Source of the DNA: Marsupella aquatica
Taxonomy: Eukaryota; Plantae; Marchantiophyta
Length of the DNA stretch: 64,000 bases
Assembly (NCBI GenBank): GCA_973895155.1
Contig: OZ316893.1
Location: 1,302,860 to 1,366,859 of the forward strand
Reading direction: 5' to 3'
Positions 24,780-63,127 of this stretch are shown piece by piece. Position 1 is the stretch's first letter. Every line of letters begins with the position of its first letter. A program made the position numbers and the translations under genes. Below the pieces are notes generated by a model. The model did not search any database. It saw only the letters and a program-made list of their open reading frames with translations, and was not told the DNA's origin.

Positions 24780-27115
24780 TAAAACTCACGACCCGGGCTT
24801 CTGCTGGGGTAATTAAGCTCATCCCCAAGAATCAGGATACCGTTGACCTTATCAACTGGAGACCGTTGACTATGCTCACTATCACTGAGAAATTGATAGC
24901 TAAGCTTGTGGCAAACCGTGTGAAGAAGGTGGCATCTCAGCTTGTGGACCCACAACAAACCGGATTTCTGGAAGGAAGAGACATCTTGGACAACCTGATG
25001 ACTTACAAAATGGCCCAAGAGTACACACAACTGACTAAACAGCAGCTGCTTTTTCTCAAGCTGGACTTCACCAAAGCCTATGACTGGGTCGCACACTCCT
25101 TCCTGTGGGCTGTGCTTAGGGTGATGAATTTTGGAGAGGAGGTGATCACTTTAATGAAAGGTCTGGTGAAGCAGACCCAACCCAAAGTCCACATAAATGG
25201 GAGGTTCACTGAACCGATTGACCTATAGAGAGGAGTGAGACAAGGATGCCCCCCTTTCCTCTCTCCTTTTCACCCTCACCACTCAACCGCTTATGGCTTT
25301 GCTCAAGAGAAGAATTGAGTGTAGGGATTGCAACGGGCTGGAACTCTGTGGAATGTGGATCACAGTCTGTGAATCACATTCCACAGACTGTGCTATCAAC
25401 TGTTTGCTGACGATCCACAGTCTGCTAATGTGAATGTGGATCACAGTCTATGGAATGTGGATGCAGACTGTGCTATCAACTGTTTGCTGACGATACCGGA
25501 CTATTCCTTGCAGCCACTGAAGCTGAGTTCACTTGTGCTAGGGAAACTATCAAGCACTATGAGAACATTTATGGGGCATTGCTGAATGTGCAAAAATCTA
25601 AGATCATCCCCATTTCACCTCAAGGACGGAATCTACCCTGGGTGGATGCAAGCTACGGGATGTAGGGTTGCCAAGGAGGGGGAGGTCACCAAATACTTAG
25701 GGAGCCCTATTGGGTACAAAGTCAGGCCCGCACATGAAGCTGCCTTTCTCATTGGGAAATTGAGAAAAAGACTGTCTCACTGGACCAATAGAAGCTTAAC
25801 TATGGCTGGCCGATCAATTTTACTAAAACATGTAGTCCGGTCCATCCCCACCTATCACTTGATGACATTGGAGCTATAACAGAATGGGTACAAAGAGATG
25901 GAGAAAGTTTGCAGACAATTTCTGTGGGGGCCCTCACGACAGACTGGCTGCAAGAAAGCTTTGATTGCTTGGAAGGACATTACTAACACCAAAGGTGATG
26001 GCGGATTGGGTATTCAACCATTTGAGGAGCAGGCCCAAGCCTTGAAGATGCACCACATTACTAAGCTCATCATGGGCACTGACAGAGAATGGATCAAGAT
26101 GGCTCATGACATCATCAAGAGAGGGCTTCATTTTGGACCCAAGAAGAAAGAGAGAAGAGGATGGACAGCTAGTGAAGCCATACTTCTGAGTGACAATCTC
26201 AAGCTCAAAGGATCCACGACGCTGAAAGGTTTGTTAAGAGGATGGCACCAAAGGAGCAAGCAGCTGAAGTTCAACTTTGGGGAGGGGCAGCTCCTTGCCA
26301 ATCTATCTATTGAGCAGACCGTTCTCTTGTATCTACGCAATAACACTATCTCTGATCTTGGAAGCATCCATTTGAGATGCTTCTTGGCTAATCGTGGAAT
26401 CAAGAAACTCTTGGACCTCAGAATAGGGATGGTGGGTGGATTCCCGAAGAGGCTATCACCCCAAGGTTGCGAAGCACCAGGATGGTGGGATTCGAGGAAT
26501 TCAGCATTTTCTACACCAAATTGCAGCAAAGCACAGGTATCACTGAGCACAACTTGCACGAGAGTGAGGGCTGGCAGTGGGGATGGAAGGGAAGAAATCG
26601 GGGCTGGAAATTCCCCAACTCTGTGTGGGCCACCTGCAACAAATGTCAACCATTGGATGTCACGAAGCTAAACAGAAGATGGGGACAAATCAGTCGACCA
26701 CAACAATGGCAACAAAAATGGAAGAAACTGTGGGGTGGGTGCCCTGGGCCCTCACGGGGGCCCTCACTCCATGTAAAAGAAGTGGACCCCCTGCGATCGG
26801 GCCCTTTTTGTGTTTACCCCTTGTTATTTCTGTTTTACCATTAAAAGTTCCCTTATTACCGGTAATAATTATAATTATTAGTTTAAAATGAATAAAAACT
26901 ACCATTCAAGCGTTCGCACGTCCTCCATGTATTAGTTAAGACTGAGGGCCCGGGGGTGGGTTCCCTAAGGTCCGCTTTCTCATCTGGCGGTTGATGCACC
27001 ATCATGGTTTCTTCACAAATGGCAGGGCCAGCCACTGGGGAGTAAGCAATGGTATCTGTGCTAGGTGCAAACTGCAATTTGAGGACACTGAACACCTTTT
27101 TTTCAGCTGCCGCAC
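24780..27115 (+). mobile_element. 5'-truncated, decayed L1-type LINE ORF2 (reverse transcriptase plus zf-RVT)
   Basis: GVIKLIPKNQ...NWRPLTML, QQTGFLEGRDILDN, KLDFTKAYD, RGVRQGCP, QLFADD, KYLG, FLWG...IAWKDI...GGLG and C-terminal CARC...EDTEHLFFSC. In-frame stops end at 25228 and 25879, and there are several frameshifts. Confidence 0.93.
26742..26954. mobile_element. 213-bp hAT-like MITE inserted in the LINE zf-RVT region
   Basis: Ends are CCCTGGGCCCTCA and TGAGGGCCCGGG, flanked by GGTGGGTG and GGTGGGTT (8-bp TSD, one mismatch). Removing the element plus one TSD restores the LINE frame KKLWGGFPKVRFLIWRLMHH. Confidence 0.75.
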
Positions 27116-31800: not shown

Positions 31801-33299
31801 TTTGACCAAGACATCACTCAATCCACTTTTTATGAAATTTGGAATTTGTGAAAGAATGCCAACCCAGAAATATTTTTCACAAAATTAATATGAGGATTCA
31901 GACTCTCAAATGTTTATAGACTTAGGTTTAGTATGAAGTCTAGTTCCCTGCATGATGCTAGTTTTTACTTAAAAACTATAGTTTACATTTTGTTGCTTAG
32001 ATTTATCTAGTTAGTTTAGGATTGGATTTGAAGAGGTATATCTTTTCAAATTCACTTTTGGGACTTCACATATGAGGATAACAAAGAGACCCCAAATCAA
32101 ACTTTGAAATACATTCTATTTCTTCATTGAGTGTTTTGAAATAAATCAATGTCATTCCCTTTTTTCATATGATTGAGTAAAGAGAATAACAATTTTGGCA
32201 ATTCTTGAGTTGCCATGAAAATTTTGATGAATGCTAGTGTGCCTACAAAATTGTTGGAAGAGATCTTATGACTTACCAATATAGAAGATCCACTAATGAG
32301 AGCATTAACATATATTTGCATGGAGCTCATTTAAGCAATCTTGAATACATAGAGAGAAGTAAGTTAATTTCAAGGGTATCCAAGTATCATTTGAAGACCA
32401 GAAAAGTGTCTCGGGTGAACTTACATAATGGTCTTCTAAATTCAAGAGATCGAGAGGAATTTCTATGATAAATTAAAAAGCATATGCAACATTGTTTACA
32501 AATTCTTAAATTAGGCCATAATCCTTGTTGAAGGAATGGTGATAGTCAAAATTCAGTGTCCTTGCTGGATGAAGAGTCAAAGTGTTTCTCTCTAGTTTAT
32601 TTATTTATTATTTATTTATAGTATTATTCTTGCACTGTGGATCATGCAGATTATCCACTAGAGTCTTGTGGTTAAACGCTCATGTTATGGAAAATCATTA
32701 GAAATTTTCCCAACTTGAGGAATGTTGGTGTAACTTCTCAAATCATGTCAAATAAGTCTTTGAGATCTCATCCACTCATAACTGAAACAAAAACAAGTTA
32801 TTTCGGAGCTAAATAGTTATTTATCTCTTTATCACTTACTACTGCATGGTATTGCAATTGTTTCCTAAAATGACAAACATATTTCCTATTACCAACATTT
32901 TTTTTTCTATTACTAGCAAAATGTTACTATTACCAGGGAAAAGTCATTCTAAAAATGTCTCATGAAAAGGAACTTAAAGTCAAGATGGACTGATAAGTTG
33001 TCTATGAAGCCCCATGGACAAACCAAACTTGGATGTACTTGACTCAAACACACATACATGCTTGGATACTATTTGTTACACTTGTGTCCAAAAATACCAT
33101 GTCAGATCATCACTTTTGTTCACCTGTCCAAAAGTACCTCGTCAAATTACCATCTTTGTCCATTTTTGTCCAAAGATACCATGTACCAACCAGATCAGCG
33201 TTGATTGCCCGGTTTAATCTGACGGGCACCTTGACGCCTCGTCGGGCACGTCAAATCGTCAAATGACGGCCCGAAAACACGCAATTTGACGTATATTCC

Positions 33300-33895
33300 T
33301 GAAGATTCTCCCGAACGAACCCCGACTTCCCCGGACCTTTCGCGAACACCTCCCGAGCACCCCGGACCTGAACCCGAACTCCCCCTGACCCGAACCCGGA
33401 CTCCCGGGCCCTTCCCGGACCCTCCCCGGACCCTCCCGGGCCTTTCCCGGAACCTCGCCGGACCCTCCCCCGAACACTCCCCGGACTCTCGGGCCTTTCC
33501 CGGACCCTCCCCGGACCCCCACCCGAACCCTCCCCGGACCCTTCCGGGGCCGGCCGGGGTAAAGGTGGCCCGGGGGACGGGATTCGGGGAACTGGGGACG
33601 GGGGGCATTCGGGGAAGAGGATTCGGGGAACCGGGGAAGGGGGGGCGGGAAAGGGGGGCCGGGATTCGGGGATTTGGGGAACGGGGTTCGGGGAACGAGG
33701 TAGGGGGTTCGGGGAAGGGGGTTCAGGTAGGGGGTTCGGGGATGCGGGGAACGGGGTGCGGGGTGCGGGGTTCGGGGAACGGGGTGTGGGGTTCGGGGAC
33801 GGGGCTCGGGAATTGGTGGTCGGGGAAGAGTTAGGGGCGGGATTAGGGTTAGGGGAGCGAGATTAGGGTTAAGGGAGGCGCAATTAGGGTTAGGA
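33300..33895. repeat. Left subterminal repeat array of the hAT: C-rich CCCGRAC half, G-rich GTTCGGGG half, then TTAGGG-containing units
   Basis: Direct reading; strand composition flips near 33550, and TTAGGG units lie at 33831-33894. Confidence 0.88.
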
Positions 33896-34025
33896 TCAAA
33901 GATTAAGAGTTTTAAGAGAGGATAAGAAGTAGATGATTTAGTATAAGTAGGAATAACTAATTCATTTCACTAATCCAAAGTCTCATTGTGTTTCTCTCTC
34001 TTGTGGTTTAGCATTAGGGAGAGAT

Positions 34026-34380
34026 CGGAGGGATACATTGGAACTCTTGTACGCGCATGCTTTGAGCTCGGCTCGGTCTGCGATAATTCGTACGAGAAGT
34101 TCCTTATATCGCCTTAACAACTTTGCATCATTGTTTTGTTTGAAAGTGAACTACTTGCGAGTAAAGAGATACCCATGTGCATATGCTTAGAGCTTTGGCT
34201 CGGTCTATGACATTTCATATGGGTATCACGATTTCTCGTACATATGTTTACTTCAAAGATAAACTATTGTGAAGTTATAGATATTACATAACATTGGTTG
34301 AAGTAGGGATGTTGACAAATATAAGAATTTGGGAAACTTTCCTGCGCATGCTTTGAGCTTAGGCCCAGTCTGCGATAATT
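34026..34380 (+). promoter_or_regulatory. Three-motif module upstream of the transposase; inverted homolog of 43416-43768
   Basis: Copies of GCGCATGCTTTGAGCTCGGCTCGGTCTGCGATA at about 34053, 34178 and 34344. The module ends about 95 bp before the ATG at 34471. A regulatory role is inferred from position only. Confidence 0.55.
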
Positions 34381-34470
34381 CAGGAAAGTAACCCATTGTA
34401 CTATATTTGTTATATTCACAAAATCAAAAGAATCAACCCTTTTATTTTTTTACCATTGAGAGTCGTAACA

Positions 34471-37392
34471 ATGTCCGATGAAGAGGATTCGCATGAAACT
34501 GGATATCATTCCACTACTCCCAGGCCTGGTCCAACTCGTGTGCAAGAACACCCTTCAAAACAATCTCCAGTGTGGAGATATTTTGAATGATGTGATGCGC
34601 CTTCAACATGTCATGATGTCAATCGTATCTATCGAAGATGCAAGTATTGTTTAACATACGTTACTCATCATGCAACACGAGCAAAGGCGCATTTGATGGG
34701 AAACATCCAAAAAGGGGATGCGCCCCCTTGCATGCAACTCTATGGTGTCGTCGATTTGGATGCCATCAACATTATGTACAATGTGATAAAGGTTCCACCA
34801 ACCTTAAAGTACAAACGACGAGATGGAAGTCATATCTTGCGGGATGTGAGAGGTCGTAGGCCAAGCGTTGGAAGTTCATATTCGCAAGCATCCACACAAG
34901 GGTCAAACTATGTTGACATGGATGATACACATGTAAGGGAAGGAGATAGGCCAGTAAATCTTCCTAACCCAATTATGGATGCCTATCAAATTCCAAATAG
35001 AACAAATTTGGATAAGCTTTGGGCGAAAGCTTTCTACACCAGTGGTATTCCATTCAATGTTTCAAATAATCCTTTTTTTCCAGAAGCAGTCATAGAGACT
35101 TCAAAAGGGATTGTCAATGGTTATTCTCTACCTACGATGCGAAGTTTGCGATTGAAATTATTGGAAGATAGTAAGGAGGATCTCACAAAGGACATGACGC
35201 ACACTTTAAAGGAGGCAAAACCTTATGGGTATTCTCTTTCTTCAGATGGATGGGAAAACGTTCGAAGAGAACCTTTGATGAATGTCATGTTGTTGACTTC
35301 TAAAGGTGACTTCTTCTTGGATAGTTGGAATGCTGCGCAAGCTGACAAGAAAGATGGGAAATATCTTGGCGACATGTGGTTGAAATACATTGAGGATATT
35401 GGTGCAGATCATATTATTCAAATTGTAACTGATGGAGCACCCGCAAATCGCGTAGCAGGTTGTGAGGTAGTCATGAAAAAGTATCCTCATGTCACTTGGA
35501 GCTGGTGTGCTGCCCACGTGTTTAATTTGCTGCTAGAGGATATGTGTGGTCACAAGCGTGTAGTGCTAGATGATGCTGGACAGAATCCATTCCAAAAGAT
35601 TTTTAAACGGTTGAGGTGGATAGTAAAAGCAGTTTCATCATCGCAAAAGCTTTCTGCAATATTTGCAAGAAAATCTCCTGACAAAAAACTGTTGAATCCA
35701 AATGCAACTAGATTTGCGACCAATTTCCTAATGGCACAAAGAGCGTTGGAGCTAAGAGGAGCTTTACAACAGATGGTCATTGATGATAATTGGCAGTCTT
35801 ATCGTGATAGACTTCCATTGCGACCAAAATCAGCTGGACACATGACGAGGGGAAAGGCAGACGAACTTAAAATGTGGATACAGCAAGATACATTTTGGGT
35901 TGAAGTGAAGGATACAGTTAAATTCTTTACTCCGTTGGTCAAGATGTTGCGAGAATTTGATGGTGATTCTCCGCAATCAGGTTGGTTGTATTGGAGTTTG
36001 AAAAGAGGGATTGATGTTTTGAAAGCAAGCATGGAGGATTGTCCATTGGTAACAGAGGTATTGAAACCAAAGATACTAAAAGTGTATTTGGATCGGAAAA
36101 AATCTCTTACCACTGATTTCATGCTAGCGGCAGCATATCTCAATCCCCAAATGTTTTTTGATGAGGACATAGATGTCGCTAGAGATCCAAAACTCTACAG
36201 GGGTTTCAGTGAATACATTGCTAGATATTCAGAACAACAGGTGAAGGAAGGGATCAACCATGATCGCGACGTCAGAGAACTTATTTCTGCCATCCACAGT
36301 CAAGCCATTGACGCCCAAAAAAAAAATCCCAACACATCAATAGCGATGGGAGCCGCCCAATCATGTATAGGTAATGTCAGTCCAGCAGAGTGGTGGCATG
36401 CGTATGGTGCAGATTATAAACATTTGAGAATCCTGGCGCGAAGAATCTTACACCAAAAAGTGTGCGCATCAGCTTGCGAGCAAAACTGGAGTTCGTATGG
36501 ATTTATACATTCCAAAAGTCGCAATCGATTGACAAATAATCGAGCAAAAGATTTGGTGTTTGTATTTACAAACATGAGGGTAGAGAAAGGGCTCACAAAT
36601 GTTCGAAACCCGCATACGTTTATATATGAACGTTATGACCAAAGAAGAAGAACAAATGATGGACCTAGACCTATCTCCATGGAGTTGTGCAGCAATGAAG
36701 AGTACGATGCAACACGTGCGGCTCTTGGTGAAGAAGATGTCAAAGATTATGATACAATTGATGATGCTGATGAATTGCTACACGGATTTTCACTGGATAA
36801 GGATAGTGAGTTCTTGACTCGTATTCCACCAGATACAGACATCATTGCTGCAGAGGAATGGGAGAATGAAATGGATTTGGAGATGTATCCTACAATTGAT
36901 GAATCGCAAATCCAAGACGAGGAAGATGCATCACTGGACAGAAACTTTGTGATGCCTTCCCAACCAAGGTCACCTTGGTCGAACTTTGCGAATGATGTTG
37001 ACACAAGCAGACCATATTTCAACGAGCAACGCACAGGCACAGCAGGGCATCCGACGAATGGAAGGACATCAACCTTTTTTCATGGATACAACAATCATGA
37101 AGGTCAAACTTCAAACGACCCACATGCAAACTGGCAACACCATGCAGGTCCACCCTTGAATGCGTATGCAGGGCCAAGTGTCATGAATCCATATACGTCG
37201 AACAGGCCTATTGGATTGGTGGGTTTCGAGGAATATCATCATTTCAAGAAACATCGCACAATGTTCAGTCACACAATCGTGATCCACTCAGTTGGGGCGA
37301 CAAACAAGACGAGTGGAATGCGCTTTTGTGCAAAAATCTTAACAACAATGCACGAAATTTCTCTTCACAGCCTTGAAGCATCTTTTCATTAG
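34471..37392 (+). pseudogene. hAT transposase (BED zinc finger, DUF659/RNase H-like DDE core, hATC dimerisation domain) with one premature stop
   Basis: ATG at 34471: MSDEED...SPVWRYFE*CDAP...RCKYC...TRAKAHL (BED finger, in-frame TGA at 34588-34590), continuing in frame into the 899-aa ORF. That ORF has SSDGW, VTDGA, WCAAH, TRF, EWW..YG and ASACEQNWSSYGFIHSKSRNRL, and an acidic low-complexity tail. Confidence 0.95.
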
Positions 37393-37659
37393 GATAATAT
37401 CAAGTGTTGCTACTCTTATATTGTCGTATCTGACATAGACAAAATTATAAACAATTATATTTTTTGTAACATGATTGTATTGTCTTGCAGTGTGTTTATT
37501 ATTGTACAATGATTGAATAATTTATTTGTATTTGCATTTGAGAATGTCATAGAGACACACCAACGCAACATGTTTTCCAAATCTCCAACACTGACTATTT
37601 CAAAGTACCTTGTTGTTGGCCATAGCAGCCGTAGTCCATACCAACCCCCTCCATTAATT

Positions 37660-38940
37660 GGTTAGTTCATTTCACTATGCGAAGATTTAGTCCAGCAATA
37701 GAGCACCGTCATATTCAATAATAATGAGGTCGAGAGGACCTCATTATTGGACCTGAGAATGTCATTGCTTGAATAAACCTTCTCGTAATAAAATAAACTT
37801 AGTTGAACTTGAAGTTGTAATGAGGGCCCATTTTTGGGGTGGGTGAATGTCGTTGACCGTAGCAGCTGCACTACTTGAAGTTGGGCAGAGTTTATATGAC
37901 TATGAGAGAAGTTGTGAAATGAACACATCGCCTACATAATCAGTAACCTTCTCATAATCATATAAACCCCGTTCAACTTGAAGTTGTAATGAGGGCCCAT
38001 TGGTGGCCAAGGAGAGCAATGTCATGATGATGATCAGACACGGTCACGGGGATTCCGCAAGATCGGTCACCAAATTGATATGCAGACGCAAAATACAGTC
38101 ACCAATTTCAAGTCAAAGTTCACCCGTTTATATCCTCTCCTGTCCGAATTCCAATTCGAGCTTGGACACCCTCTCGTCAGCAGGTCTCCACCCTTTCAGT
38201 TGCTCCTCACGCGAACCTCTGGATTCCTCAAACACTATGAATGATGCATTGAAATAAAATAGGTTTGAGGATTCTAGAGATTGCTATCTTGGTTTGCGTG
38301 AAGAGCAACTGCAATGGTGGAGACCAGCTGACGAGAGGATGTCCAAGCTCGAATTGGAATTCGGAAAGGAGAGGATATAAACATGCAATTGTGCGAATTA
38401 ATGTCATAGGCCGTAGCAACCGTACTCCAGTAATTGGTCAGTTCATTTCATTATCAGAAGATTTATTCAAGCAACGGAGCACGGACATATTCAATAATAA
38501 CAAAGTCAGGAGGACCTGAAATATTGACCTGAGAGTGCCATTGCTTGAATAAACCTTCTCATAATGAAAAAAACTCTGTTCAACTTCAAGTTCTAATCAG
38601 GGCCCATTTTTGGGGTAGGCAAATGTAGAGGCGTTGGCCTCGGTTTGCATGTGCATGAATGTCATTGGTCGTAGCAGCTACGCTACTTGAAGTTGAACAG
38701 AGTTTATTTGAGTACGAGAGAAGTTGTGAAACCAACGGATCGATGACATACTCAGTAATTTTTTGCTCGAAGGACCTGAAAATTTGACCTGAGAGTGCAT
38801 TTGCTTTCAGAATTTCTCTCGTACTCAAATAAACTCCGTTCAACTTCAAGTTGTAATGAGGGCCCATTTTTGTGGTGGGCAAAGGAGTAGGCGTTGGCCT
38901 CGGTTCGCATGTGCATGAATGTCATTGGCCGTAACAGCAA
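37660..38940. repeat. Degenerate modular repeats inside the hAT spacer
   Basis: gtt(c/g)aactt(c/g)aagtt(g/c)taat(g/c)agggcccatt occurs four times (about 37802, 37971, 38578, 38838), and further blocks (...atgaatgtcattgg..gta, ...gacctgagag) are repeated. Confidence 0.8.
38126..38382. repeat. Long inverted repeat (fold-back hairpin) inside the hAT element
   Basis: Outer arms 38126-38217 and 38291-38382 are reverse complements with about 7 mismatches in about 92 nt. An inner stem of about 20 bp (38218-38238 with 38259-38278) closes a loop of about 20 nt. Confidence 0.9.
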
Positions 38941-39443
38941 TAGCGGAAAAAATTATGAAAGACAGGAAAAGTGAGTGGACTTAGGTATACATCCTTCTAC
39001 AAAATCATTCTCAACTTGGGCGGCTACAACCATTGCGATGTTGACTTTGTTGAACTCATTGTGCTACACGATCTCCTTTTGGAAATGATTTCAGAGAAGG
39101 ATCAGTACCTGAGTCCACTGTGCTACCGTCTCTCATCACGTCTATTTTCCTCATACTTGTCCAAAAATATGATTGTGAGCCCGACAATATGCTTCCAAAA
39201 CCTATGGCTGATTGGAGGATGGAATATTCTTACGAAAATACACATTCTCCAAAAGGCGACGCCATGCCCCCAATGAAAAATATATGTACTCAACGAGATA
39301 TGCAATGTAATGTCACTCCAAAATCTCTTTACCAATTACAAGTTGAAAATAATTGTCAAAGAGGATATGCCGCTTCTATTTTAACAAAATGTCTCTAATA
39401 GTAACTACATGAAAATAACATCAAAATGTAGAGACTATTGGTT

Positions 39444-41402
39444 TTAGTTCCTTTTGTTGTTATTGTCAACAGCTTCTGTTTTCACCTCTGCCTGTTGTTG
39501 ACGTCCTCGATGGCGCCGAATGGATCGTTGCAAATTTTGCTCATCTATTGATGGCTGGTTGGCTGCCGCATATTGTTTCCACTCATCGAGTCGACCACTG
39601 AATAACAACCTGTCAAATTCCCCATCTGACAAATTATATTCATTGATTGTGAAATGTTCAATGGGAGTTTCATCTATTTGCATCGCCGGTATAGTATCTT
39701 CAGTCATATCTTCAGTCATATCTTCAGTATTTTGTTGAGTCTCCATTGATGGCATTTGCTTCAACAATCCTCGTTGCTCATACTCGCGTTCATGAAATGG
39801 TGTGCGACACCAACATTTTCGGCTTTTCTTCAACCATTTAGACAAGCAAGCATGATGCCATATATGACCGCAGGTTCCCAACATGGAAACAGATTCAGGG
39901 CCCCAAGGATATAGGCACCAAGTACACTTGTCATCCTTTTCACGAACAAATGCTGCCATAGTTTCATCCTTTTTCCACTTATCAAAAAACCTATCAATAC
40001 CTTCCGCGTCAACCTCCACATCTGGAAAAAGGTTGCTGTGCCCTATAGGATCTATGATTTGCATGTTAACAAAATTTGGCGACGATAATTCACCTTGCCC
40101 TTTGTTTGACCTCATCCCCAAAGCACCATTGTTAAATTCTTGCATCTCTTCGTGAAGATTTGATATGATGATTGCTTGCGTTGCAAGTTCACTTTTAAGA
40201 TCATTAATGATCTTGTCCTTCTCCTCAAGTCGTGCCAGTTCATTGCATTGACGCTCTTTTTCAGCAAGTTGTTTTGTCAGCTTATTGATTTCTTCCATCT
40301 TGTCAAACAATTGACACTTGTACAACATCACTTCCGAATTGGTCGTCAGCTCGTTCTACTTCTTCTCAAGTGATCTCATCTTTATATCAGCTTGTTGCAA
40401 TTGTGACTTGAACTTTTCGATGCTGCCACATTCACATAGCTCCACTACATACTTCGTGCAGAGATTTGTCTCAATCACCTCTGCAACATCTGCCCCCAAG
40501 CTCTTGCATATGTTGTGCAGGTTGAACTTATCCTTGTTAGCATCAGTAACATTGTTGTTCTTTGCATGTGGAGTTCTACTCCCAACACCTACAAGGATTG
40601 GTTTTTTGGTGTGCGTTGACTCCACATTGGTTGGTGGTGCTGCACGGTCAGGCATGGAGACTCGAGGAAGTACAGCCACTTTCCCCTTCTCATGCGCATA
40701 TCCCTCCCCAGTGTCATCTAGCTTTCTTTTGGATCCCTTGTTGGAAGTCTCCATTGAAGGGTCCTTTGCAATAGTTGTATTCCTATTCGTTGCAATCGCA
40801 ACCATTGATGGATGCACCTGATGAGTCAGCTTGCCAGCACTGTTTTCCCAATGGTAATCCACCTTCCACTTGAGAATGAATTCAGCAATCAGACATCGGA
40901 TAAAAGGAGGGTAAACGGAACTCATTTTTGTTTGGGCTTTGTGTGGAGCAAACTCTCGATATCGTTGCTGCCAATGTGATTTAACACCTGCATGTGTTAC
41001 TTTGGACATGGTGAATTTTTCTTGCGCCCATGATCTTGTTGCCCAAAGATCCGGATCGTGAAAAACTTGTTGTGCTAATGGCCAAAAGTCTTTCTTTGGC
41101 ATCAACATCTCCAATTCCTTTGCATTCATGGCCCATTCGTCATGGGGAGGATTTACATTGGGCGTTAATATACTCCATTCATCCTTCATATCCTCATCTT
41201 CCCATCTTCTTGTGTTTGGCGCCGGTGTTCCATCAACCTTGGGTTTAGCCTCATAGTGAATGCCAATGGTTGTAAGATTATCCAACACATTATTACGAAG
41301 AGCTTCATCGTCACAATAGGATCCTTGACCATCTTGCATGGTAAGATGTTGTGTCGTGAACTCTTTATCTTCATCATCAGAAGACAATTCCCATCGTCCC
41401 AT
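39444..41402 (-). pseudogene. hAT cargo: about 650-aa coiled-coil plus RING-H2-like protein (putative E3 ligase) with one premature stop
   Basis: ORFs 40356-41453 and 39444-40331 are in the same frame, separated by one TAG (SLEKK*NELTTNSEVMLY). The probable start is MGRWELSS at 41402. A heptad-rich segment (MEEINKLTKQLAEKERQCNELARLEEKDKIINDLKSEL) precedes CTWC...CGHIWHHAC...W...KCWCR. Confidence 0.8.
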
Positions 41403-41582
41403 GTTTGCGATGTGTACAAAAGGTCTACGATATTTGACAATGTACAAACACATTTAGCATAATTTTGGGCATTCACGACAAAGTTTGATAGAATATTATC
41501 AACAAAATGCAGAACATTGTAATTGACATACAATGAATAAACATATAATCGTTAAGGTGACCTTTACAAAATTGTGTAAACC

Positions 41583-43193
41583 CTAATCTCTAATCTCTAA
41601 GATATGGACTGTTGTGCAAATGCAATGTGCAATCTGGAAACGTTTGAAAGCACAATCCATTCTTTTCTTGGCATCCGTGGCCATCATTTCACGGATTATG
41701 ACATCCAATTTGGGGCCATGCACTTGTGCACTCCAACCCCTCCCCAAAAACCGTGAACCCTTAGACATTCCATCCCAATTCTCTGTCAACAATGTCTCAA
41801 AAATATTCCCCAAAGCATATATATCGGTACTTTCACTAAACTCGACATGGGTAGGTTGAACAAGCTCCGGAGCCAACTGTGGAAATTGTTTTTGGTATGT
41901 TGCTACTTTTTCTGTTGCTGTGGGCCACATCCGATTAGCTGGTAATTTGCACATAAACCAACATACACCTTAATAGCCACATCGTGCTCGTGATCGAAAT
42001 GAAGAAGGATGTTTCCAAAGTGAAGATCACAATGAAATCGATCATGCTCATGCAAGTATTGCAGTGTCTCCAGCAAAGCCAAGGCGATTCCCAACCGGTT
42101 CTCCAACAAGAGTTTCTTCTCCGAAATAAACTTGAAATCAAGGTCCGTCGTGATCTGTGCCTTCTCCTTGCTCTTTGACGATATGCCGCATTTATCAATA
42201 AAGCTACCCAAGTCACCTCCATTATAGTGATCGTAAATAAGTTTTGGCGGATCCTCAATAGTCAACGCAAGAGCTCCAACGATTCCCTTATGATTCAGTC
42301 CTCCCATAAGCACTTCTTGTAATGCGTCAATTCGTCTCTTATGCTTGTCTCCATCCTTGAACCACTTTGCGACTAAGGTCACGTTGACGGGAATGAGAGG
42401 ACAATGTAATATACGACAAGTGTATACCTCTCCTTGGATTCCTTTCCCAATGCGACGTGTGTTGTGCACCTGCTCAGGTTTAAGAAAATGGATACTCCTA
42501 ACCTCTGGAACTACACGCGATGGACGTGTTCCTTTTCGAGAACTTTTGATGCTGACATCCCCAAAGTGCACAATCTCGTTAGCATATTTGACATTGCTAT
42601 CAGATTTTGCCATTGCCAACTCCTTACTCCACTTCACTAGCAATTCTCTCTTGTGTGTGTACATCCCGGGGTTTCCAAGCAATGTAGTGTCACCCTCTTC
42701 CACTTTGGCTGCCAAATTATCCCAAACATGCTTCTCCAAGTTGAGTGCCAAATTTTCCAGAAATCCTCCCGGTTTCTCAGTTTCATCTTCAAATGACTTC
42801 ATTTGCTCTCGTGTGAAATTGTCCTCCTTTTGTACACTTTCCCGCATACAACGGGTTATCTCACCAAGAAAGTTCTTGTATCCATTCTCTCCGTGTCTTG
42901 TGAACTCCCTCTCGAACCCGTCCACCCCATACTATTTCGGTAGTGTAGCGATAAAGTATCTCTTTCCATATCGACACTACCACATTGTGTCGAACCTGTT
43001 TTGCCTCTTCGTTTGCCCCCTTCCGTTTTCCTTTCCCGGCCACTTTGCTAGAATTCCTAGCATGTTTGAGAGTGTTTCGAGCGTTCTTCAATGCATCCAG
43101 AGCAACAAGATTCGGCTCATATCCCTCATTCACATGTTTTGTGATCATCTCCAACACTTGCCTATACTCTAAACTAAAATTTTTGATGACCAT
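41583..43193 (-). pseudogene. hAT cargo: protein kinase with an N-terminal extension of unknown function; two frameshifts
   Basis: IGKGIQGEVY (Gly loop), VAKWF (subdomain II Lys) and HCDLHFGNILL (catalytic loop), then after a frameshift near 41950, LAPEL and STDIYALG. A second frameshift near 42925 joins the 43193 ORF (EIVWG/VDGFEREF). Confidence 0.88.
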
Positions 43194-43415
43194 GTTTTCC
43201 CTTCACAAAAAGAATATGTGAGGGAGGAACAAGATCTTACCGGGATTTAAATAAAATCCTTCCAATAAGGATTCAACGACCAACCTGAAAATTACAAGTC
43301 GTATTGTTATTATCTTTTCCCGGTTTATTTCTCCCATGCATTATGTATTTTTATTGCACACATGATTTTAATTACCTTTCTATATAATAACAATAAAAGA
43401 GAAAGACAACACTTG

Positions 43416-43768
43416 TGAAATATCGCAGACCGAGTGGACGCTCAAAGCATGCGCACAAAAGTGTTCTTTTCTTTCAAAGTTGTTATATTCCTGCTTCGAC
43501 ATATGTGATTTGGTGTCTATAACTTAACACTCATTTGTAATTCAAGTAAAAACATTCTCGGCAAATCGTGGTATCCATGCAAAGTATCGCAGACCGAGCC
43601 GAAACTCTAAGCATGCGTACATGGATTCCTCTATCTCCGCAAATGTTTTACTTAATAAACAAAGGAGACTAAATTGTTAAGGTGATATTAAGAAATTCTT
43701 GTACGGAGTATCGCAAACCGAACTGAGGCTCAAAGCGTGCGCGTACAAGTGTTTCTTTATATCCCTCC
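43416..43768 (-). promoter_or_regulatory. Three-motif module upstream of the kinase cargo gene; inverted homolog of 34026-34380
   Basis: TATCGCA(G/A)ACCGA...CTC(A/T)AAGC(A/G)TGCG at about 43421, 43585 and 43709. Spacer sequences also align in reverse complement with the left module. Confidence 0.55.
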
Positions 43769-44084
43769 ATTTGGCTCTAAGGTTAGGGTTTAAAACACAA
43801 AAAAAACTTAAAAAATCACAAAACAAAACACAAACAAATAAAAACAAACCAAAAATAAAAAATAAAAACCAAAACCAAACACTTACCTCCTCCTCCTCTC
43901 CTCCTCCTCCTCCACTCCTCTCCTCCTCCTCTTCCTCCTCTCCTCCTCTCCTCCTTTCTGCAAAACCGAAAATGAGGAGGGAGAGGAGGGATCTCCTCCT
44001 TTTATCCTCTCCCGAGCCCCGACCCTTTCCCATCCGGCCCCATCCTCCAACCCTAAATCGCGAAACCCTAATTCTCCGAGCCTC

Positions 44085-44455
44085 AATCCCGAACCCCGAA
44101 CTTCCAAACCCCGAACCGGACCCCGAACCCCGAACCCCGAACCGGACCCCGAACCCCGATCCCCACCCGGACCCACCCCGGCCTCCCGGACCCGAACCCC
44201 ACCCGGACCCCCACCCGAACCCCCCGCACCTCCTCCTTCCGGACCCGAGCCGCACCCGGACCCCACCCCGAACCCCCACCGAGCGGTCCCGAACCCCACC
44301 CGGACCCCACCCCGAGCCCCCACCGAGCGCCTTCGCCCCGGACCCGGACCCGATTAGTCATCCGGACCCCCACCCGAACCTCCTCCCGAACCTCCTCCCG
44401 AACCCGAACCCCGAACCGGACGTTTCCTTTCCCGGACTGCTTCCGAACCCGGGTG
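44085..44455. repeat. Right subterminal CCCGAAC/CCGGAC repeat array of the hAT
   Basis: Dense cccgaacc/ccggaccc units; their reverse complement matches the G-rich half of the left array. Confidence 0.88.
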
Positions 44456-47400
44456 CCGGGTTGTCAATTTGCCGCTCTCAAACGCCCAGTTTGACGGGCA
44501 AGGTCAAACCGGGGTTGATTGGAAGCTCATTGTATTCTCTTTGTATCCTTTTCCCTCAAGCTAGTCACTTTTACCATTTTTTTAGAATTCAATAGAAAAA
44601 ATATAAATGTGTAAGGTATGTTTAGGTATTTGTATGCATTATCTGGCCTTTATGGTAATAAAATTATATAGACTAAGCTCTCCACAATTTACTCTAGTGC
44701 CTCAAGTAGTTTGTTCAATGAGCAAAAGCAAAATTATTCAAATTTTTACTCAAGAATATTTTTATGCTTATAATATATAGATCGCAAAAATCCCACAAAA
44801 GGGGGAAACAAGCAACACAATCCCCGTGAACCAATATAACAATTTTCACTAGGAAAACTGGGTGCGAATCTTGATTTTCATAGAGCATTGCTCTTGAGGC
44901 GAAATTGTATTTTCCATAGAGTGTCGCTCTTGTGTTAAGGAGAGGTTTGACTTATTTAGCTGCAACAAAATTATCTCAGATTTTAATCTAAGAGAGTTTG
45001 TTGAGAAAACTTATTTTTCATAGAGCATTGCTTTTTCACGAATAGCACTTCAATTAATTTCCCACTGCAAAGCTCCAAGAAATGATTTTTCAAAGAGCGT
45101 TACTCTTGTTACAATAAGCGCTTCCGGTACTTTGCTGTCGCGGAGGTCTCAAAAATTTCAAATACAATACTAGATGTAAATCTTTGTTTCATTCAATACA
45201 TATTTTCAGTTCAAGTGTACATAGACTCCTAATGTACTTGAAATGTAAGTAAACAGCTAATAGAATATTGATTACCTAGATTTTTTCATCATTAAGTGTA
45301 AAATGCTTAGTTTATGTGTCACAGTCCATGGGGACGATGGGAGATAACCTTCAAGTACATCCGAGCTTTGGTTTCCATGAAAAGTCTCATTTTCCAAAAT
45401 TCTTTAAAACATAACTTCTTTTGGCTAGCTTTGGGCACTATCATTACCAACTCTGGGCGCTAGCAAAACAATGTTAACTTATACCAAAATAAACTCATTT
45501 TTTCATTTAATTTTTTAAAACTATTATCACCCATTTCCTCATTATTAGTAATTGTTTCCTGTTGTTTGTAAATACCTCCTACAACAAGATACAAGAAAGA
45601 AAAGTAAGCAAAAAATGAAGAGCAAAAGCAAACAAAAAAGTTGGAAGCCCACACTCAATGATTGCAAGTGGAGACAATCAGTGAAATTTTATGACTTTTT
45701 GAAATCAAGGTACACACAAACACACTTGGAAAGATAGTAGTAACATGTGTTGAGTCAAGAGCTCAAGGGGTTAATTAAATGTATATTTTGGGGTATCACG
45801 TGCAATTCTAACCTAATATAAATAAACCTATTTTATAAAGAAAATATTCAAAAAATATTTTCAATATTTAATATTAATAACCTATTTTACTTTATAAAAA
45901 GTAGATATTAAAGGATAATTAATAAATATGTGTTTATAATACCTTCTTTTGTCTCCTATGCTTTTTAAAAATTTAGTTAATTTCTACCAAAAATACATAT
46001 TTTGGATTGCATGTGATTCCTAAGATTTGTTATAGTCAACCCCCGAGGTCAAGAGAAACTAAAATAACTTGCTTTGGAAGAATACTCACTCTATTCATGG
46101 CAAAAGAGCAAAGAATTGGCTAAAGAGTGCATGTACTCTAGTACTTCATCTCAAAACTGAAGGATAGGAAGAAACTTAACTCCATAGATTTAACAAATCA
46201 ATGAGGTATTCATAAATCCTAGCTTAGAGTACTAGATTTGTTTGATAAACAACATGATTAATCTAGTTTCTTCTTCTTGTCATTTGCAAAATAGTATATA
46301 AGGATTGATTACAATAATTAGACTATATAGATTAGACCGGTCTGCAAAAAGATATACATGGACATGCTCCTTAGTTGTTGAAAAATTAATTTTTTGATTT
46401 ACAAATGATACCTCCTGACAGAGCAAGTAAGCAACCAAATGCATTCAAATAATTTAACATTTTTAAGTTTTAAAAATAAAGCAAATAGCAAACATCCCGC
46501 AACCTTTAGTGACTCAATAAAAATCTCCAATAAGAAGAACCTCTTTGGCAGTCTTAGGGGCCTCAATCCAAGAGGTTTCCCATATCACGCGCAAAGTTTT
46601 TGAGAAATAAACACCTTCAAACTTAAGCCACTAATTTGATTTTATGGTAATGTTTACCCCTAATTTAACAGAATATTATTGGAATATTTCCAAATTTGGT
46701 CTTAAAAAACACTATGATTCTTATAATTATAAAAAATGGATTAAAACAACCCTAATATTTTAAAACTAAATTTTAAATTATTTTACTAAACCCAATTAAA
46801 AACCATATATTTATTTGCGCATGATGGGTTGGAAGAAGAGAAGTGAGGACCTAGGGCCAGCCGTATGCTATTCTATTGTATAGTAAGAACTATCTAATAA
46901 TAGTTTGACAAATAAATTGCTTTGAAGATGATGTGAAGCCAGACAATGAAGGAGGAGTGAAAAAAATGAGAAAGCTTGCAATAAATCTTTTGATGTTATA
47001 TTTTGTATATGTAGTTTACTAATTTTTGATTGATTCTCAATGATTTTAAGTACACCAAATTGAGAAAGTCAAGTTAGTTCTAAGTAATGCGTTGGAGTTT
47101 GATTTTGATATTAGGTTATTTTGAATCAAAATTTAAAGTGTAACTCTAAAATTTTGACTGACCTTGAGAGCGGCGCATGTAAAAGCAAGATAGTAGAGTA
47201 TTGTAAGTTGATCTATTCAGCACATAAGGTGCAAAATTGTAAGAAAAAATTCAATCATCGATCAAGTTTACAATAATGTAGAATAGCCAAGATATAATAA
47301 TTTCATGACACAACAAAAGCATAATACAGTCCAAACAACAAGGCATTTGCAGGATCAAACAAGGGCCAAGAGAATAATGCTCAGTCTATATCTAAGAAAG

Positions 47401-48990: not shown

Positions 48991-49860
48991 TCACATCGCG
49001 TTGAATTTCCGCTTGGATGTGGTGGGTTGTTCTGTTGTTGTTTGGGCAGGGACGTCAGATAGCAGCCCCTGGTCGTTGCTCCTCCTCAGCCTGTCGATCA
49101 GGGACTGGGATTGCTGATGTGTCAGCCCTACCAACATATCAAGTGGCATCTTGAAATCATGCCTCAATCTGGTCAGTTACTCTAGACGAGCTCCCTTTGT
49201 GACCTGGATGTACTCACGCATCCCGTCCTTGTAAGTGAGCTGGTCTTCCTCGAACGGAACTGCCATGTACCTAAGAATCTCCTTCATGACACCTGCATTT
49301 GTTTTCAACACGGAGTTAGTGCTTAATGTGTGCATGAGATGGTTTAATTCATTTTTTATTGGGGGTTTTCTCTTTGTGCTTACCAGTCGCCGGTTTATCT
49401 CTCTAATGATCATAGAAGTCGGCCTTGAACACTTTCCTCTCCTCGATCATCTTCGACAGTTCTCTCCTCTTGATCCCATTCACCATCTCAATTGTCTCGA
49501 TTCCGAGACCGTTGCCGAAAGCAATTTGTTTAGCCGTTACCTCCTCGTCAGTCCGAAAGTCATCCGACGGCAGCTCTCTCATGATCATCCTTGCCATCTC
49601 CACGGCTGTCATGGGCTGCAAAGGAAAGACGTGAACAATGTGTTAGAACAATAGTGCCCGTCAATGTTAATGAATCTTGCAACTTTTGTATCATCATTTC
49701 ATTATATATCGCTTGCATCAACAAGGTGAAGTATGATGTGGACACTGTTTACCTGAACTGTTGTAGGACTAGCGCTTGTCGGATTGCTATTTGCGCCTGT
49801 CATTGTTTCTCGTTGTTGTTGTGATGCCTTCGCTGCCTTGTTGCCTTTGGTGGTCGACAT
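48991..49860 (-). pseudogene. Spliced accessory gene downstream of RepHel, function unknown (about 240 aa reconstructed)
   Basis: Exon 1 49860-49753 (MSTTKGNK...SPTTVQ, 36 codons); phase-0 intron 49752-49616 (CAG|gtaaac...cctttgcag|CCC); exon 2 PMTAVEMARMIMREL... with a frameshift near 49410. An in-frame TAA ends at 49177, and reading continues LTRLRHDFKMP...SKRKFNAM* to 48991. Confidence 0.6.
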
Positions 49861-52800
49861 CTGCTTGTTGAACACGACGAATTGGTAAGTGGAACACTTT
49901 GAAGTCCGGCGGCGTAAGATCTCCAACAATGCGCATGAATGCTCTATTTGTGACCCTACTCAACATAACGTACACCAGTCCCGGTATGAATGCACTGTTT
50001 ATTTCTAGCATGACCTTGCCCGCTAGTGTGAAACCTTGGCTCTTGTGACCTGTTATAGCGTATCCGAGCATGAGAGGGAAAGTGGATTCCCGATGGGTTT
50101 GCTGTCCCGAGATGAACTTGTTCTCGTGAACCGTGCGGTTGATCTTTACGAGGCAGTGGTTGAAAGACATTCTCACAAAAATTGACATTTTGCCTTCGGC
50201 TTCTGTAGTGATTTTCTCCACGATTCCTCCGTTGCCGTTCGCGGCCTGCTTGGAGAGGTCGATGTTGTGTGTGAGAATCACCTTGCATCCGATTGCAACG
50301 TTCGTCAGTGTGTGGAAGGAGGGATCTTGTATCCAAGGCCGGGTGGATTCGTCTGAAGGGGCATTGGTGAGTATTGGGACGGGCACGATCTCTTGGCGTG
50401 GAAAATATCTCCGTAATGCCCGTTCATTGTAGTTGTTGACTGTTTCTCTATGTGTGCATATCACGGTCATCGAGGCATCGATGAAATCATGGGCTTCTTG
50501 TTTGGACATGTAACAACGTCCCAGGCACTCATCGATCGATTCTTGGGTAGGGAGGCCTGTGCGGATGTTGTTAAGGAACTTCATGAACTCCCGATCTGTG
50601 CTCTATCTGAGCACAGTGCTGAGGTGAAATTTCTGCATGGTCTCAAAATATGGCGAGGACGAGAGGTGGCACGACCTGCATATGTCGTTGGTGTGGTGGG
50701 TGCAAACCGGAGGCAATTGGCACATGTCTCCGACCAGGATGACCGTCTTATTTTGGAACGGGTCAGATGAGCGGTCCTCGTCTTGGAGTGTCTCGTGTAG
50801 TCTTGTGGAGACGCAACGCAACAGTCTGGGTGTCAGCATGCTCGCCTCGTCTATGATGAACACGTCATTGTTCCTCAAGATGCGGTATTGGGAACTGGTG
50901 ATGTGCAGAGGCCTGAGCTCTCCTTGTATTGGAATGCTGAATAAGGCATGCATTGTCACCGCGTCCGCGTGAAGGTTTATGGCAGCCGCGCCCGTGGTGG
51001 CACACATCTTCACCTTCCTCCCTTTATATGTCCAGTATTTGTTCATGAAAGAGATGAAGAAAGTCTTGCCGGATCCCGGATTTCCATCAATCATGAACAT
51101 ACCGCTCTTGACATCCTTGAGTGCCTCAAACACTCTGATTTGGTCCGAAGTCAAGTTGACGGTCGGGAGAGTTTTGTCATTGAGCACCGCGCCAATCGGT
51201 TTCTCTACGGTGACGGTGGGGACCGCTTGGAATGTGGCCGCGTCGTTGAAAATTTGGTGGGGAAGCTTTTCGTTCAGCTCTTGTAGCAGGTGGGATGTGT
51301 GGTGGGTGGAGTAGAGGTGCGATGCACAATAATCAAGCACCAACTTGTGTACGTTGTTGACGCTGGTTATCAACTTGCGGTGTATGCACTCGTGCAAGTA
51401 GCTCCACGTCTCGCTTATGGGCCTGAGGAGAATCTCGCCTTCTGCACGGAATCTCACGACCTTCAGGAGGTAGTCGTAGAAGAAGCCGTTCATCTTGTAT
51501 ACTGGATGATACTCCGAAAATTGCACGAGCCGATCCGTCCGATACACAAAATTGCCTTGCAAATCCCTACCGACGTAGTCTTTGGTGGTGCTTTTCTTAT
51601 TGGTGAAGACCTCATGGTTGGTGAAGTAGTCGTAGAAGGACATTGCAAACATGTCCTCGGGCCTCTGTGCATAGAGTCTGGTGGGATGCAAACATATCCC
51701 CGAGGACTTACGGTAGATGGCGGACCTCAGTTCCGGAGGCGACGAGTCCATGAATGCCACTATTTCCGAGCGATGGATGATGCTGATTTTGAGGCACGTC
51801 AAGGCCGCCTCCATGGCACACACGCTCCGAGACACGACGGCTCCGCTGACGAGCTTGAGTTGGACTTCAGACAGGTCCTCGAGTCCTAGAGTGCGCGCAT
51901 CGTTTGCATTGAGCTGGAGTGATCCCAAGGGCTCGCATTTGATCGCATACTTGAGCAAATAGAATGACCAGGCCGCATTTGTGATGCGCTGCAGGTTCAT
52001 GTGCGCGCCCCACAATAGCAACACGAGCGGGTGGTATGGCATGACATTTTGGTGATGGTCGCTTGGCCTATGGTACCTCCATTTCCCCGTGGCGGGGTCG
52101 ATGGCCGCATCTTTGTCGAGGTGAGTTTCTTGGGGGAAACCCAACTTGCAGTACTTGAGGCCGGTTTGGGAATGCCTTTGCAAGCACAAACCCTCCTTGC
52201 AGTAGTGAAGTTGTTTCGTCACCACGTTGCGATACAGGGTCTTTTCTTCAAGTCCATTCGGCTCTTCAAATCTTCCAGATGTCGAGTCGAATCTGCCAGG
52301 GATGAATGCGGAAATTTTGTTTGTGACTCGATCGACGTCGCAATCCTTGACCCATAGCACCATGTGGGCGTGGAGTGATCCACGGCCCTGCAACTCGTAC
52401 TTGATGATGTAGTGGATCACATTTCCAATTATGGCGCGTTTCGACAAAATATAATCCCTGAAAAAACGTTGGATTCGTTCGTGGAAGAGCACGGCGCATT
52501 CGACAGGACAATCTTTCCATGAGAAGGTCGGATTCATCCTCTTCACAAGGTTCTCGAGGTCGGCGATCTCAGGCCAACGGGTGTCGCTAAGCTCATCGCA
52601 AGTGAGCGTGAGGAAGAAATGGGGCAGTCCCCATTTTCTCACCATGCACTTGAGGTCGTCGATGTGTCTTTCGTGCCAAGCCGGGCTCCCAGGAACGGCC
52701 TGCATGATTGTCTTTTTTATCAGCATTTTGTATATTTCCTTCTCGCTAAAGTGGGGGCACTTCTCCTTGATCTGCATGTATTCCTTGTCGATTACTATCG

Positions 52801-62700: not shown

Positions 62701-63127
62701 CAAGCATGGTCAAAGTCATGTTGAGGATACTTGGGCCGTCCAATCGCAAAATTGGGTCTAATGACAACCATTCAATATGAAAGAGCTAACTTGGGCTAGC
62801 CTTCTTAACCTATAAACAAGAGCAATGGCATAAAAATCAAGGGCAAGGTATATATTATGCCAAAAAAGAGTGGCAATCTAGGAAATTAGAGTTCTTATGA
62901 AAGGATTCACAATTATTTAGAAGCTAATTAAATAGTTGTCCACTAGAGAAATAGCACGTGGGAATAAAAGTGGGGCCAAACACTTTGTAAAGGAATAAGC
63001 ATTGAGGCACAAGCACCAAGTCACCCAAAACCAATTTTTTTTTGCTTACTAAAAAATTCATCGAAACTCTAATATATAAGGAATGATTAATTGTTCTTCT
63101 CAAGATGGGAATCCTTTCGAGCAGAAA

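What the first reader, a model, noticed from the sequence alone, without database searches (positions are those of the whole stretch)
34026..43768. Mirror-image architecture: the same three-motif module precedes both the transposase and the cargo arm
Seen in sequence: 34026-34380 and 43416-43768 are diverged inverted homologs lying about 0.75-0.8 kb inside each end. Each has three copies of an approximately 33-bp motif (GCGCATGCTTTGAGCTCGGCTCGGTCTGCGATA) and alignable spacers, and each points inward at a start codon (34471 and 43193). This recalls the inward-facing TIR promoters of MuDR (mudrA/mudrB) rather than a typical hAT. Inference: a duplicated promoter co-regulates transposase and cargo, which argues the cargo is a functional part of the element. 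The CATGC core resembles RY/B3 sites, but this is speculative.
Basis: partly seen in the sequence, partly recalled or inferred. Interest (0 to 1): 0.78.

Follow-up and report, generated by a model that had tools for sequence, protein, structure and literature searches.

The report
Triple RNA hairpin leader in transposon
In a plant (likely liverwort) jumping gene, the transposase gene and a passenger kinase gene are each preceded by the same three fold-back hairpins, whose pairing is kept by compensating mutations even in a distant relative, so the module likely acts as a folded RNA switch on both transcripts rather than as a DNA promoter.

Summary
The mirror module is real, but it is probably not a set of promoter boxes. 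Each of the six motifs is the cap of a long hairpin. All six are predicted to fold the same way on the strand reading into the gene: long stem, 6-nt bulge, short stems with G·U pairs, 2-nt bulge, variable loop. Stem sequences drift while pairing is kept (11 of 20 pairs change on both sides; 0/500 shuffles reach this). A model built from them finds the same hairpins, in the same order and strand, upstream of a distant homolog of the cargo kinase in a metagenome contig; the next gene there is a different, non-hAT transposase-like gene. No Rfam family matches. The host element is an 11.3-kb hAT (8-bp TSD, 8-bp TIR) from a multi-copy family. Best reading: an undescribed structured RNA leader that travels with the kinase and was copied in front of the transposase, likely gating both genes through a bound protein. 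Transcription, start sites and ligand are untested.

The parts
33200..33207 (.). Left target-site duplication (8 bp)
   Evidence: identical to 44514-44521; only TSD+IR solution found
33208..33221 (+). Left terminal inverted repeat: 8 bp perfect, 11 of 14 match the right end
33220..33545 (+). Left subterminal short repeats (TGACG cluster, then C-rich CCCGRAC array); likely transposase-binding sites (inferred)
   Evidence: hAT BED domains bind short subterminal repeats near the tips (PMC10368747 passages)
33610..33894 (+). G-rich array and TTAGGG (telo-box-like) repeats; candidate true promoter region (inferred)
33970..34011 (+). Branch point + pyrimidine tract + AG: candidate 3' splice site just before the left module
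   Evidence: pattern scan; untested
34028..34115 (+). Left hairpin 1 (cap 34054-34088)
34119..34276 (+). Left hairpin 2, long stem (cap 34180-34215, with two double compensatory changes inside the cap)
34325..34405 (+). Left hairpin 3 (cap 34345-34380)
34471..37392 (+). hAT transposase (BED-like N-terminus, DUF659, hAT dimerisation domain); stop at 34588-34590 in this copy; homology to P0014 ends near 36840
   Evidence: other copies differ at 34588
37650..39125 (.). Cluster of long, related fold-backs between the convergent genes (pre-miRNA-like or foldback repeats); they lack the module motif
39444..41402 (-). Cargo gene 2: unknown N-terminal domain, coiled region, RING-H2; one in-frame stop at 40356-40358
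41590..43193 (-). Cargo kinase: basic N-terminal segment, helical domain without a PDB match, protein kinase domain; broken near 42941, 41951-41987 and 41640-41649 in this copy
43236..43241 (-). Donor-like GGTAAG about 45 nt before the kinase start; same position in L001
43385..43488 (-). Right hairpin 3 (cap 43418-43453)
43519..43676 (-). Right hairpin 2, long stem (cap 43582-43617)
43680..43767 (-). Right hairpin 1 (cap 43706-43741)
43881..43886 (-). Consensus 5' splice donor followed by a U-rich tract, upstream of the right module; suggests transcription starts before the module (inferred)
   Evidence: sequence
44040..44505 (-). Right subterminal region: telo-box-like repeats and CCCGRAC array
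44500..44513 (-). Right terminal inverted repeat
44514..44521 (.). Right target-site duplication

Best explanation
The mirror module is a run of three hairpins with compensated base pairs and one shared bulged cap, lying on the sense strand before both start codons, and it likely works as a structured RNA element in the 5' leaders that binds a protein and gates expression of the kinase and transposase transcripts together. Shown: duplication, predicted fold shared by all units, compensatory change, position, and the same trio before a distant kinase homolog. Inferred steps: (1) transcription starts upstream, in the GC-rich/telo-box region, so the module is transcribed; splice-like signals lie upstream of both modules. 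(2) The stable stems and 8-11 upstream ATGs per leader would hold expression down by default. (3) Three copies of one cap form a multivalent site for one protein. (4) The module belongs to the kinase cassette and was copied in front of the hAT transposase, where selection on pairing continued. (5) The ligand is most plausibly element-encoded, and the kinase, with its basic N-terminal segment, is the first candidate. Odds: selected single-strand structure about 0.9; cis-acting RNA control about 0.6; kinase as the ligand about 0.2.
For: All 6 window units give the same cap topology on the sense strand, z -2.5 to -5.5; the antisense folds differ among units. Six units: 96.7% of 120 cells paired, 11 of 20 pairs with a change on both sides, 0/500 shuffles. 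Eight units with L001: 93.1% of 160 cells, 12 of 20 pairs, 0/500; the cap helices alone are 97.7% paired with 3 double-changed pairs. Folding one module alone and testing it on another gives 10-20 double-kept changes against nulls of 3-11, p 0.0005-0.004 in all 6 comparisons. A model built only from the window finds L001 82-170 and 245-334 at E about 1e-6, on the sense strand, upstream of a kinase 43% identical to P0005; the 3' half of a first hairpin sits at the contig edge. The next gene in L001 is a DUF6729 protein, not a hAT. L001 40-350 folds at z -6.4 on the sense strand and -2.3 on the other. Among pairs that are Watson-Crick in another copy, G·U outnumbers A·C 40:14 on the sense strand (43:19 with pairs taken from the antisense fold). 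Of 7 double changes private to the transposase-side module, 6 keep the pair (structure fitted on these rows). Upstream ATGs: 8, 11 and 11. A K/R-rich 8-mer (4 or more K/R) is present in 17 of 18 kinase N-termini.
Against: There is no RNA evidence: transcription, start sites, splicing and ligand are untested. Only one distant locus was found (1 of 39 candidate stretches), and it shows the module before the kinase only. Common family variants in the right module keep pairing in 9 of 13 paired sites, not beyond the null (mean 7.9, p=0.2; 25 of the 40 rows shown were used, and 39 more rows were not shown). Unpaired columns lean the same way as the G·U excess (15:10), so that excess is weaker evidence than a 50:50 test suggests. 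L3 folds better on the antisense strand because of an A·C mismatch. The sequences are related, so shuffle counts are not probabilities. The basic segment may be only a nuclear localisation signal, and the kinase's helical domain matched no known RNA-binding fold (inconclusive).
Confidence: 0.6

Rival explanations
1. The three hairpins are a polycistronic small-RNA precursor, or a Dicer decoy, embedded in the leader or its intron. The cap would be a processing signal and the lower stems would yield the small RNAs.
For: Lower stems of 25-70 bp.
Against: The same paper saw no sequence conservation outside miRNA/miRNA* in such precursors; here the cap is the shared part and the stems vary. No Rfam miRNA hit falls on either module. 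Small-RNA data were not available.
Confidence: 0.15
2. One reading: a duplicated double-stranded promoter/enhancer whose three motifs are transcription-factor sites (RY/B3-like).
For: Position before both start codons; motif 80% vs rest 67% identical between the arms; MuDR has convergent genes driven from promoters in its TIRs (PMC3440606 passages).
Against: Double-stranded sites give no reason for compensated stems or conserved bulges. The motif is not better conserved than the rest against L001. No CATGCA in any cap and no TATAAA/TATATA in either module. Splice-like signals lie upstream of both modules.
Confidence: 0.12
3. A DNA-level feature: transposase-binding subterminal sites, single-stranded DNA hairpins, or an old foldback insertion whose arms were homogenised by template switching with no selection on RNA.
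For: It lies within 0.8-1.2 kb of each end, in mirror orientation; hairpins also form with DNA parameters, only 4-7 kcal/mol better on the sense strand; palindrome correction can mimic compensation (general knowledge).
Against: Better candidates for transposase sites lie nearer the tips: all 38 CCCGRAC copies in the element are outside the modules, and studied hATs need only about 100-220 terminal bp (PMC10368747 passages). The module precedes a kinase beside a non-hAT gene in L001. Homogenisation should erase the 6-nt and 2-nt bulges and the G·U pairs, which persist in 8 of 8 caps.
Confidence: 0.13

Closest known systems
hAT superfamily DNA transposons (DUF659 + hAT dimerisation type)
   Same: 8-bp TSD, short TIR, short subterminal repeats, BED-like N-terminus and hAT transposase domains
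   Different: 11.3 kb with two cargo genes, an internal mirror module and a central hairpin cluster; the TIR starts CCCGG, unlike the usual hAT start (recalled, not from a call)
MuDR (mudrA/mudrB) of maize
   Same: Two convergent transcription units, each starting from a homologous inward-facing region (PMC3440606 passages)
   Different: MuDR's ~215-bp TIRs hold the promoters and transposase site; here the TIR is 8 bp, the shared unit is 0.75-0.82 kb inside, is only 72% identical, and is conserved as structure
VANDAL/VANC sequence-specific anti-silencing (Arabidopsis)
   Same: An accessory gene on a DNA transposon plus a repeated non-coding motif that may be its target (PMC6719617 passages)
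   Different: VANC depends on a short high-copy tandem motif; here there are six long hairpins, and the accessory genes are a kinase and a RING protein with no VANC domain found
Lentiviral TAR / 7SK arginine-sandwich hairpins (works-like lead only)
   Same: A 5'-proximal hairpin with a short U-led bulge next to a short capped stem; a basic peptide and a kinase in the same system (PMC6189040 and 10.1101/2025.11.01.685830 passages). Five of 6 window caps have A-U as the second pair above a two-base U-led bulge
   Different: Both L001 caps have G·U there, so the U·A-U triple is not conserved; no Rfam match; the hairpins probably do not sit at the transcript's first base; no homology is claimed
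Plant miRNA precursors (short loop-to-base class; TE-borne miR820)
   Same: Long imperfect stems with a structured top of similar size
   Different: The conservation pattern is inverted: cap shared, stems free; fixed 6-nt one-sided bulge

Membership tests
hAT superfamily | 8-bp target-site duplication | tested here: met
   33200-33207 = 44514-44521
hAT superfamily | Short TIR plus short subterminal repeats | tested here: met
   8-bp perfect TIR; TGACG and CCCGRAC repeats near the ends
hAT superfamily | hAT transposase domains | tested here: met
   DUF659 E 7e-30, Dimer_Tnp_hAT E 2e-9; 68% to P0014 over 790 aa
hAT superfamily | Empty site or independent insertions with other flanks | tested here: inconclusive
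   No empty-site joint among the 15 of 95 joints shown; no genome held
MuDR/Mutator | Long (~215 bp) TIRs that hold promoter and transposase site | tested here: not met
   Ends read inward are only 39-49% alike over the first 400 bp
MuDR/Mutator | MULE-family transposase | tested here: not met
   Pfam gives hAT domains only
RY/Sph (B3) promoter element | CATGCA core (recalled consensus) | tested here: not met
   0 of 8 complete caps contain it
Promoter (any) | Start site downstream of the motifs and activity in a reporter | not testable with these tools
   No raw-read RNA run available
Known structured RNA family (Rfam 15) | Match to a curated covariance model | tested here: not met
   No hit at gathering score anywhere in 33000-44700; of 19 sub-threshold hits only one (E 2.8, 33973-34043) touches a module edge
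Plant miRNA precursor, short loop-to-base | Structured terminal region of about 42 nt | tested here: inconclusive
   The cap is 36 nt; cut sites unknown
Plant miRNA precursor, short loop-to-base | Sequence conservation confined to miRNA/miRNA* | tested here: not met
   All 13 invariant columns of the 8 units lie in the cap
Plant miRNA precursor, short loop-to-base | Precise small-RNA duplex in sequencing data | not testable with these tools
   No small-RNA run
TAR-like arginine-sandwich element | Bulged U in a triple with an A-U pair above it | tested here: inconclusive
   A-U in 5 of 8 caps, G·U in 2, mismatch in 1
TAR-like arginine-sandwich element | Binding by an arginine-rich peptide and transactivation | not testable with these tools
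   Basic segment present; binding untested
VANDAL/VANC-type anti-silencing | Accessory protein causes family-specific demethylation through a short motif | not testable with these tools
   No methylation data; no VANC-type Pfam domain in the cargo

The most novel reading that the evidence does not exclude
A portable 'kinase + triple hairpin' cassette gives liverwort DNA transposons a Tat/TAR-like switch. The element's own kinase binds the hairpin caps on its nascent transcripts and turns on, in a family-specific way, any gene placed behind the hairpins. Transposons of unrelated superfamilies have picked up the cassette, and this hAT put its transposase under it by copying the RNA module.
Probability: 0.15. 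Interest if true: 0.93.

Novelty: new variant of a known kind. Interest (0 to 1): 0.74.

Why it matters
Control of DNA transposons is usually read at the DNA level: TIR promoters, subterminal binding sites, methylation. A conserved, compensated RNA structure shared by transposase and cargo leaders would be a new layer. It is in no Rfam family, and my 10 literature searches found no description of it or of this kinase family. It ties the cargo kinase to the element's life cycle. A 2019 review counted only three TE-encoded anti-silencing mechanisms (PMC6719617 passages); this gives a directly testable candidate for another kind, with compensatory mutants already supplied by evolution.

Tried and rejected
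No own genome was held, so copies could not be aligned directly. Exact motif scans found nothing in metagenome, viral or prokaryote contigs. Kinase or transposase scans found nothing in viral and prokaryote contigs. The look-up of sequencing runs: no RNA holder listed among 7 runs; this is not evidence on expression. Minimal uORF idea (ATG-CTT-TGA in 3 of 6 window caps): rejected, absent from both L001 caps. Self-targeting small RNAs: no 21-mer from the modules or central hairpins scored 3 or better against the rest of the window or L001; host targets untested. Known ribozyme or riboswitch: no Rfam match. Kinase helical domain: folds confidently (pLDDT 88) but has no clear structural match (Foldseek best E 0.5; VIA best Z 5.6, rmsd 3.3, 82 aligned); this does not show a new fold. 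The full-length model was poor (pLDDT 59) and matched generic kinases; the ESM Atlas gave generic kinases. Gene 2 N-terminal part: no longer homolog, only sub-0.9 atlas leads. Long degenerate TIRs: rejected; only 34008-34407 clearly exceeds the ~60% alignment background, and the 65-67% at 33608-33807 is low-complexity. Earlier scan findings: four look-ups empty, one returned unrelated bacterial cases. Complex prediction was not used, as it takes no RNA partner.
Full report
1. Observation. The two segments are inverted homologs: 316 of 446 aligned bases identical, score 381 against at most 106 in 100 shuffles; blastn gives 34027-34382 vs 43768-43416 at 72%. The window holds six complete motifs and no more. 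One 8-bp duplication with an adjoining inverted repeat was found among 10^6 position pairs, placing the element at 33208-44513. The modules are therefore 818 and 745 bp inside the ends. Homologs support both start codons.

2. The element. The plus strand encodes a hAT transposase (DUF659, hAT dimerisation) with one stop in this copy. The minus strand encodes a protein kinase, broken in three places here, and a second gene ending in a RING-H2 finger, with one stop. The best named relatives of kinase (82%) and transposase (73%) are from Calypogeia fissa, so the host is likely a leafy liverwort; this is an inference. The family is multi-copy: 1457 and 5254 contigs of runs X2 and X3 lay on it, with depth in 30 of 30 bins including the cargo, and other copies differ at the break positions 34588 and 42941. 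Depth is not copy number, and X2 may be the source sample. Full-length kinase relatives keep the glycine loop, lysine, catalytic loop and DFG, and several copies sit on different C. fissa contigs.

3. What the module is. The bases flanking each motif are complementary. Folded as RNA on the strand that reads into the gene, all six units give one topology: a long lower stem, a 6-nt bulge on the 3' side, 4 bp, a 1x1 loop, 3 bp with two G·U pairs, a 2-nt bulge, 3-4 bp and a short loop. On the six-unit alignment 96.7% of 120 cells pair and 11 of 20 pairs change on both sides; no shuffle of 500 and no slid register comes close. RNAalifold finds the same structure unaided. Because that structure was derived from these sequences, I also folded each module alone and tested it on the others: 10-20 double changes kept pairing against nulls of 3-11, p 0.0005-0.004 in 6 of 6 comparisons. 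Among 42 windows of 390 nt sampled across the 64 kb, the modules ranked third and fourth for excess folding energy, behind two long fold-backs. Rfam has no matching family.

4. An independent relative. The one metagenome locus with a kinase relative (1 of 39 candidates; L001, 43% to P0005) carries the same hairpins. A model trained only on the window finds L001 82-170 and 245-334 at E about 1e-6 on the sense strand, and the 3' half of a first hairpin sits at the contig edge; the leaders align colinearly over 400 nt. With these two added, 93.1% of 160 cells pair and 12 of 20 pairs change on both sides. In sequence, the cap is no better conserved than the rest against L001 (59/91 vs 136/232). 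The gene after the kinase in L001 has DUF6729 and no hAT domain; I take it for a transposase of another superfamily from recalled motifs, and no paper in the library names DUF6729. No hairpin of this kind precedes it. So the module tracks the kinase, and the transposase-side copy is likely the derived one. It carries 7 private double changes, 6 of which keep the pair, against 1 on the kinase side (fitted structure, units 2-3 only).

5. RNA or DNA. For RNA on the sense strand: L001 folds at z -6.4 vs -2.3; G·U exceeds A·C 40:14, or 43:19 using antisense-defined pairs; the cap's wobble pairs would be mismatches on the other strand; the orientation is sense in 3 of 3 loci. Against over-reading: unpaired columns lean 15:10 the same way; common family variants keep pairing in 9 of 13 sites, p=0.2, although two pairs vary on both sides; L3 folds better antisense; DNA parameters also give hairpins. 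A consensus splice donor with a U-rich tract lies 120 nt upstream of the right module, and a branch point, pyrimidine tract and AG lie just before the left one. This suggests that transcription begins outside the module; it is not shown.

6. Mechanism. A fixed cap with one-sided bulges on free-varying stems is the pattern expected of a protein-binding RNA site, repeated three times (inference). The leaders are very stable and hold 8-11 upstream ATGs, so they would repress by default unless spliced out, bypassed or opened. I favour a cis-acting RNA switch shared by both genes (0.6). The ligand is unknown. The kinase is the first candidate because the module travels with it and 17 of 18 N-termini carry a basic segment, but that segment may be a nuclear localisation signal, and the helical domain has no informative structural match. 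Rivals: small-RNA precursor (0.15), double-stranded promoter (0.12), DNA-level or neutral foldback (0.13).

7. Comparison. The element meets the hAT tests and fails the MuDR tests; it resembles MuDR only in layout (PMC3440606, passages seen). hAT BED domains bind short repeats near the tips, and about 100-220 terminal bp suffice (PMC10368747, passages); the outer arrays fit that role better than the module. Short loop-to-base miRNA precursors have a ~42-nt structured top without sequence conservation (PMC3787264, passages), the reverse of the pattern here. VANC and miR820 are the known accessory systems (PMC6719617, passages). The window caps resemble the TAR/7SK bulge motif (PMC6189040 and bioRxiv 10.1101/2025.11.01.685830, passages), but the key A-U pair is G·U in L001, so this is a lead only. 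I read no supplements; repeat libraries and supplements of liverwort genome papers could already list the element itself. Ten searches (listings seen) found no description of the RNA module or the kinase family.

8. Verdict. Observation confirmed; interpretation partly supported and redirected from DNA promoter to structured RNA leader. New variant of a known kind (a cargo-bearing hAT) carrying an apparently undescribed RNA family. Interest 0.74.

Noticed in passing
window 37650-39125: About six long fold-backs between the convergent genes, four or five sharing related arms; 38127-38381 scores E 1e-16 to a plant MIR model but far below its gathering score. It could be a transposon-borne miRNA cluster or nested foldback repeats. 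No targets found in the window.
   Followed up: partly
window 39444-41402 (-): Second cargo gene of about 650 codons: unknown N-terminal domain, coiled region, RING-H2; no homolog found for the N-terminal part.
   Followed up: partly
L001 2527-5521: DUF6729 gene with transposase-like motifs (recalled) directly after the kinase, same strand: the kinase cassette appears in an element of another superfamily.
   Followed up: partly
window 43200-43290 (-) and L001 440-545: Beyond the three hairpins, the kinase leaders share small hairpins and a donor-like GGTAAG about 45-50 nt before the start codon, too close for a normal intron; possible regulated splicing.
   Followed up: no
window 43206, 43441, 43685 (loose ends): More distant family copies carry cap variants closer to the L001 type, and two contigs of run X3 show a cap-like sequence right next to the kinase start.
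   Followed up: no
window 33208-33215 and 44506-44513: The TIR starts CCCGG, unlike the usual hAT terminus (recalled); the left end has opposed C-rich and G-rich arrays, the right end only one array.
   Followed up: no
window 32500-33200 and 44520-45200: Both flanks are themselves repeated in the laid runs and hold short tandem units: the element probably sits inside another repeat.
   Followed up: no
proteins P0038, P0044, P0047: A more distant kinase group with a helical N-terminus (E 1e-18 to 1e-22 to the family profile); the two looked up are known only from Logan contigs. Possibly sister transposon-borne kinases.
   Followed up: no
window 3498-4601 (+): ORF ending in an EAR-like motif that resembles the last exon of a BES1/BZR1 transcription factor (recalled; no Pfam hit).
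   Followed up: no
window 24764-26671 and 49787-53757: Decayed LINE reverse transcriptase and a Helitron Rep/helicase.
   Followed up: no
window 62401-62831 and 60408-60518: Further inverted repeats, the first strongly folding.
   Followed up: no
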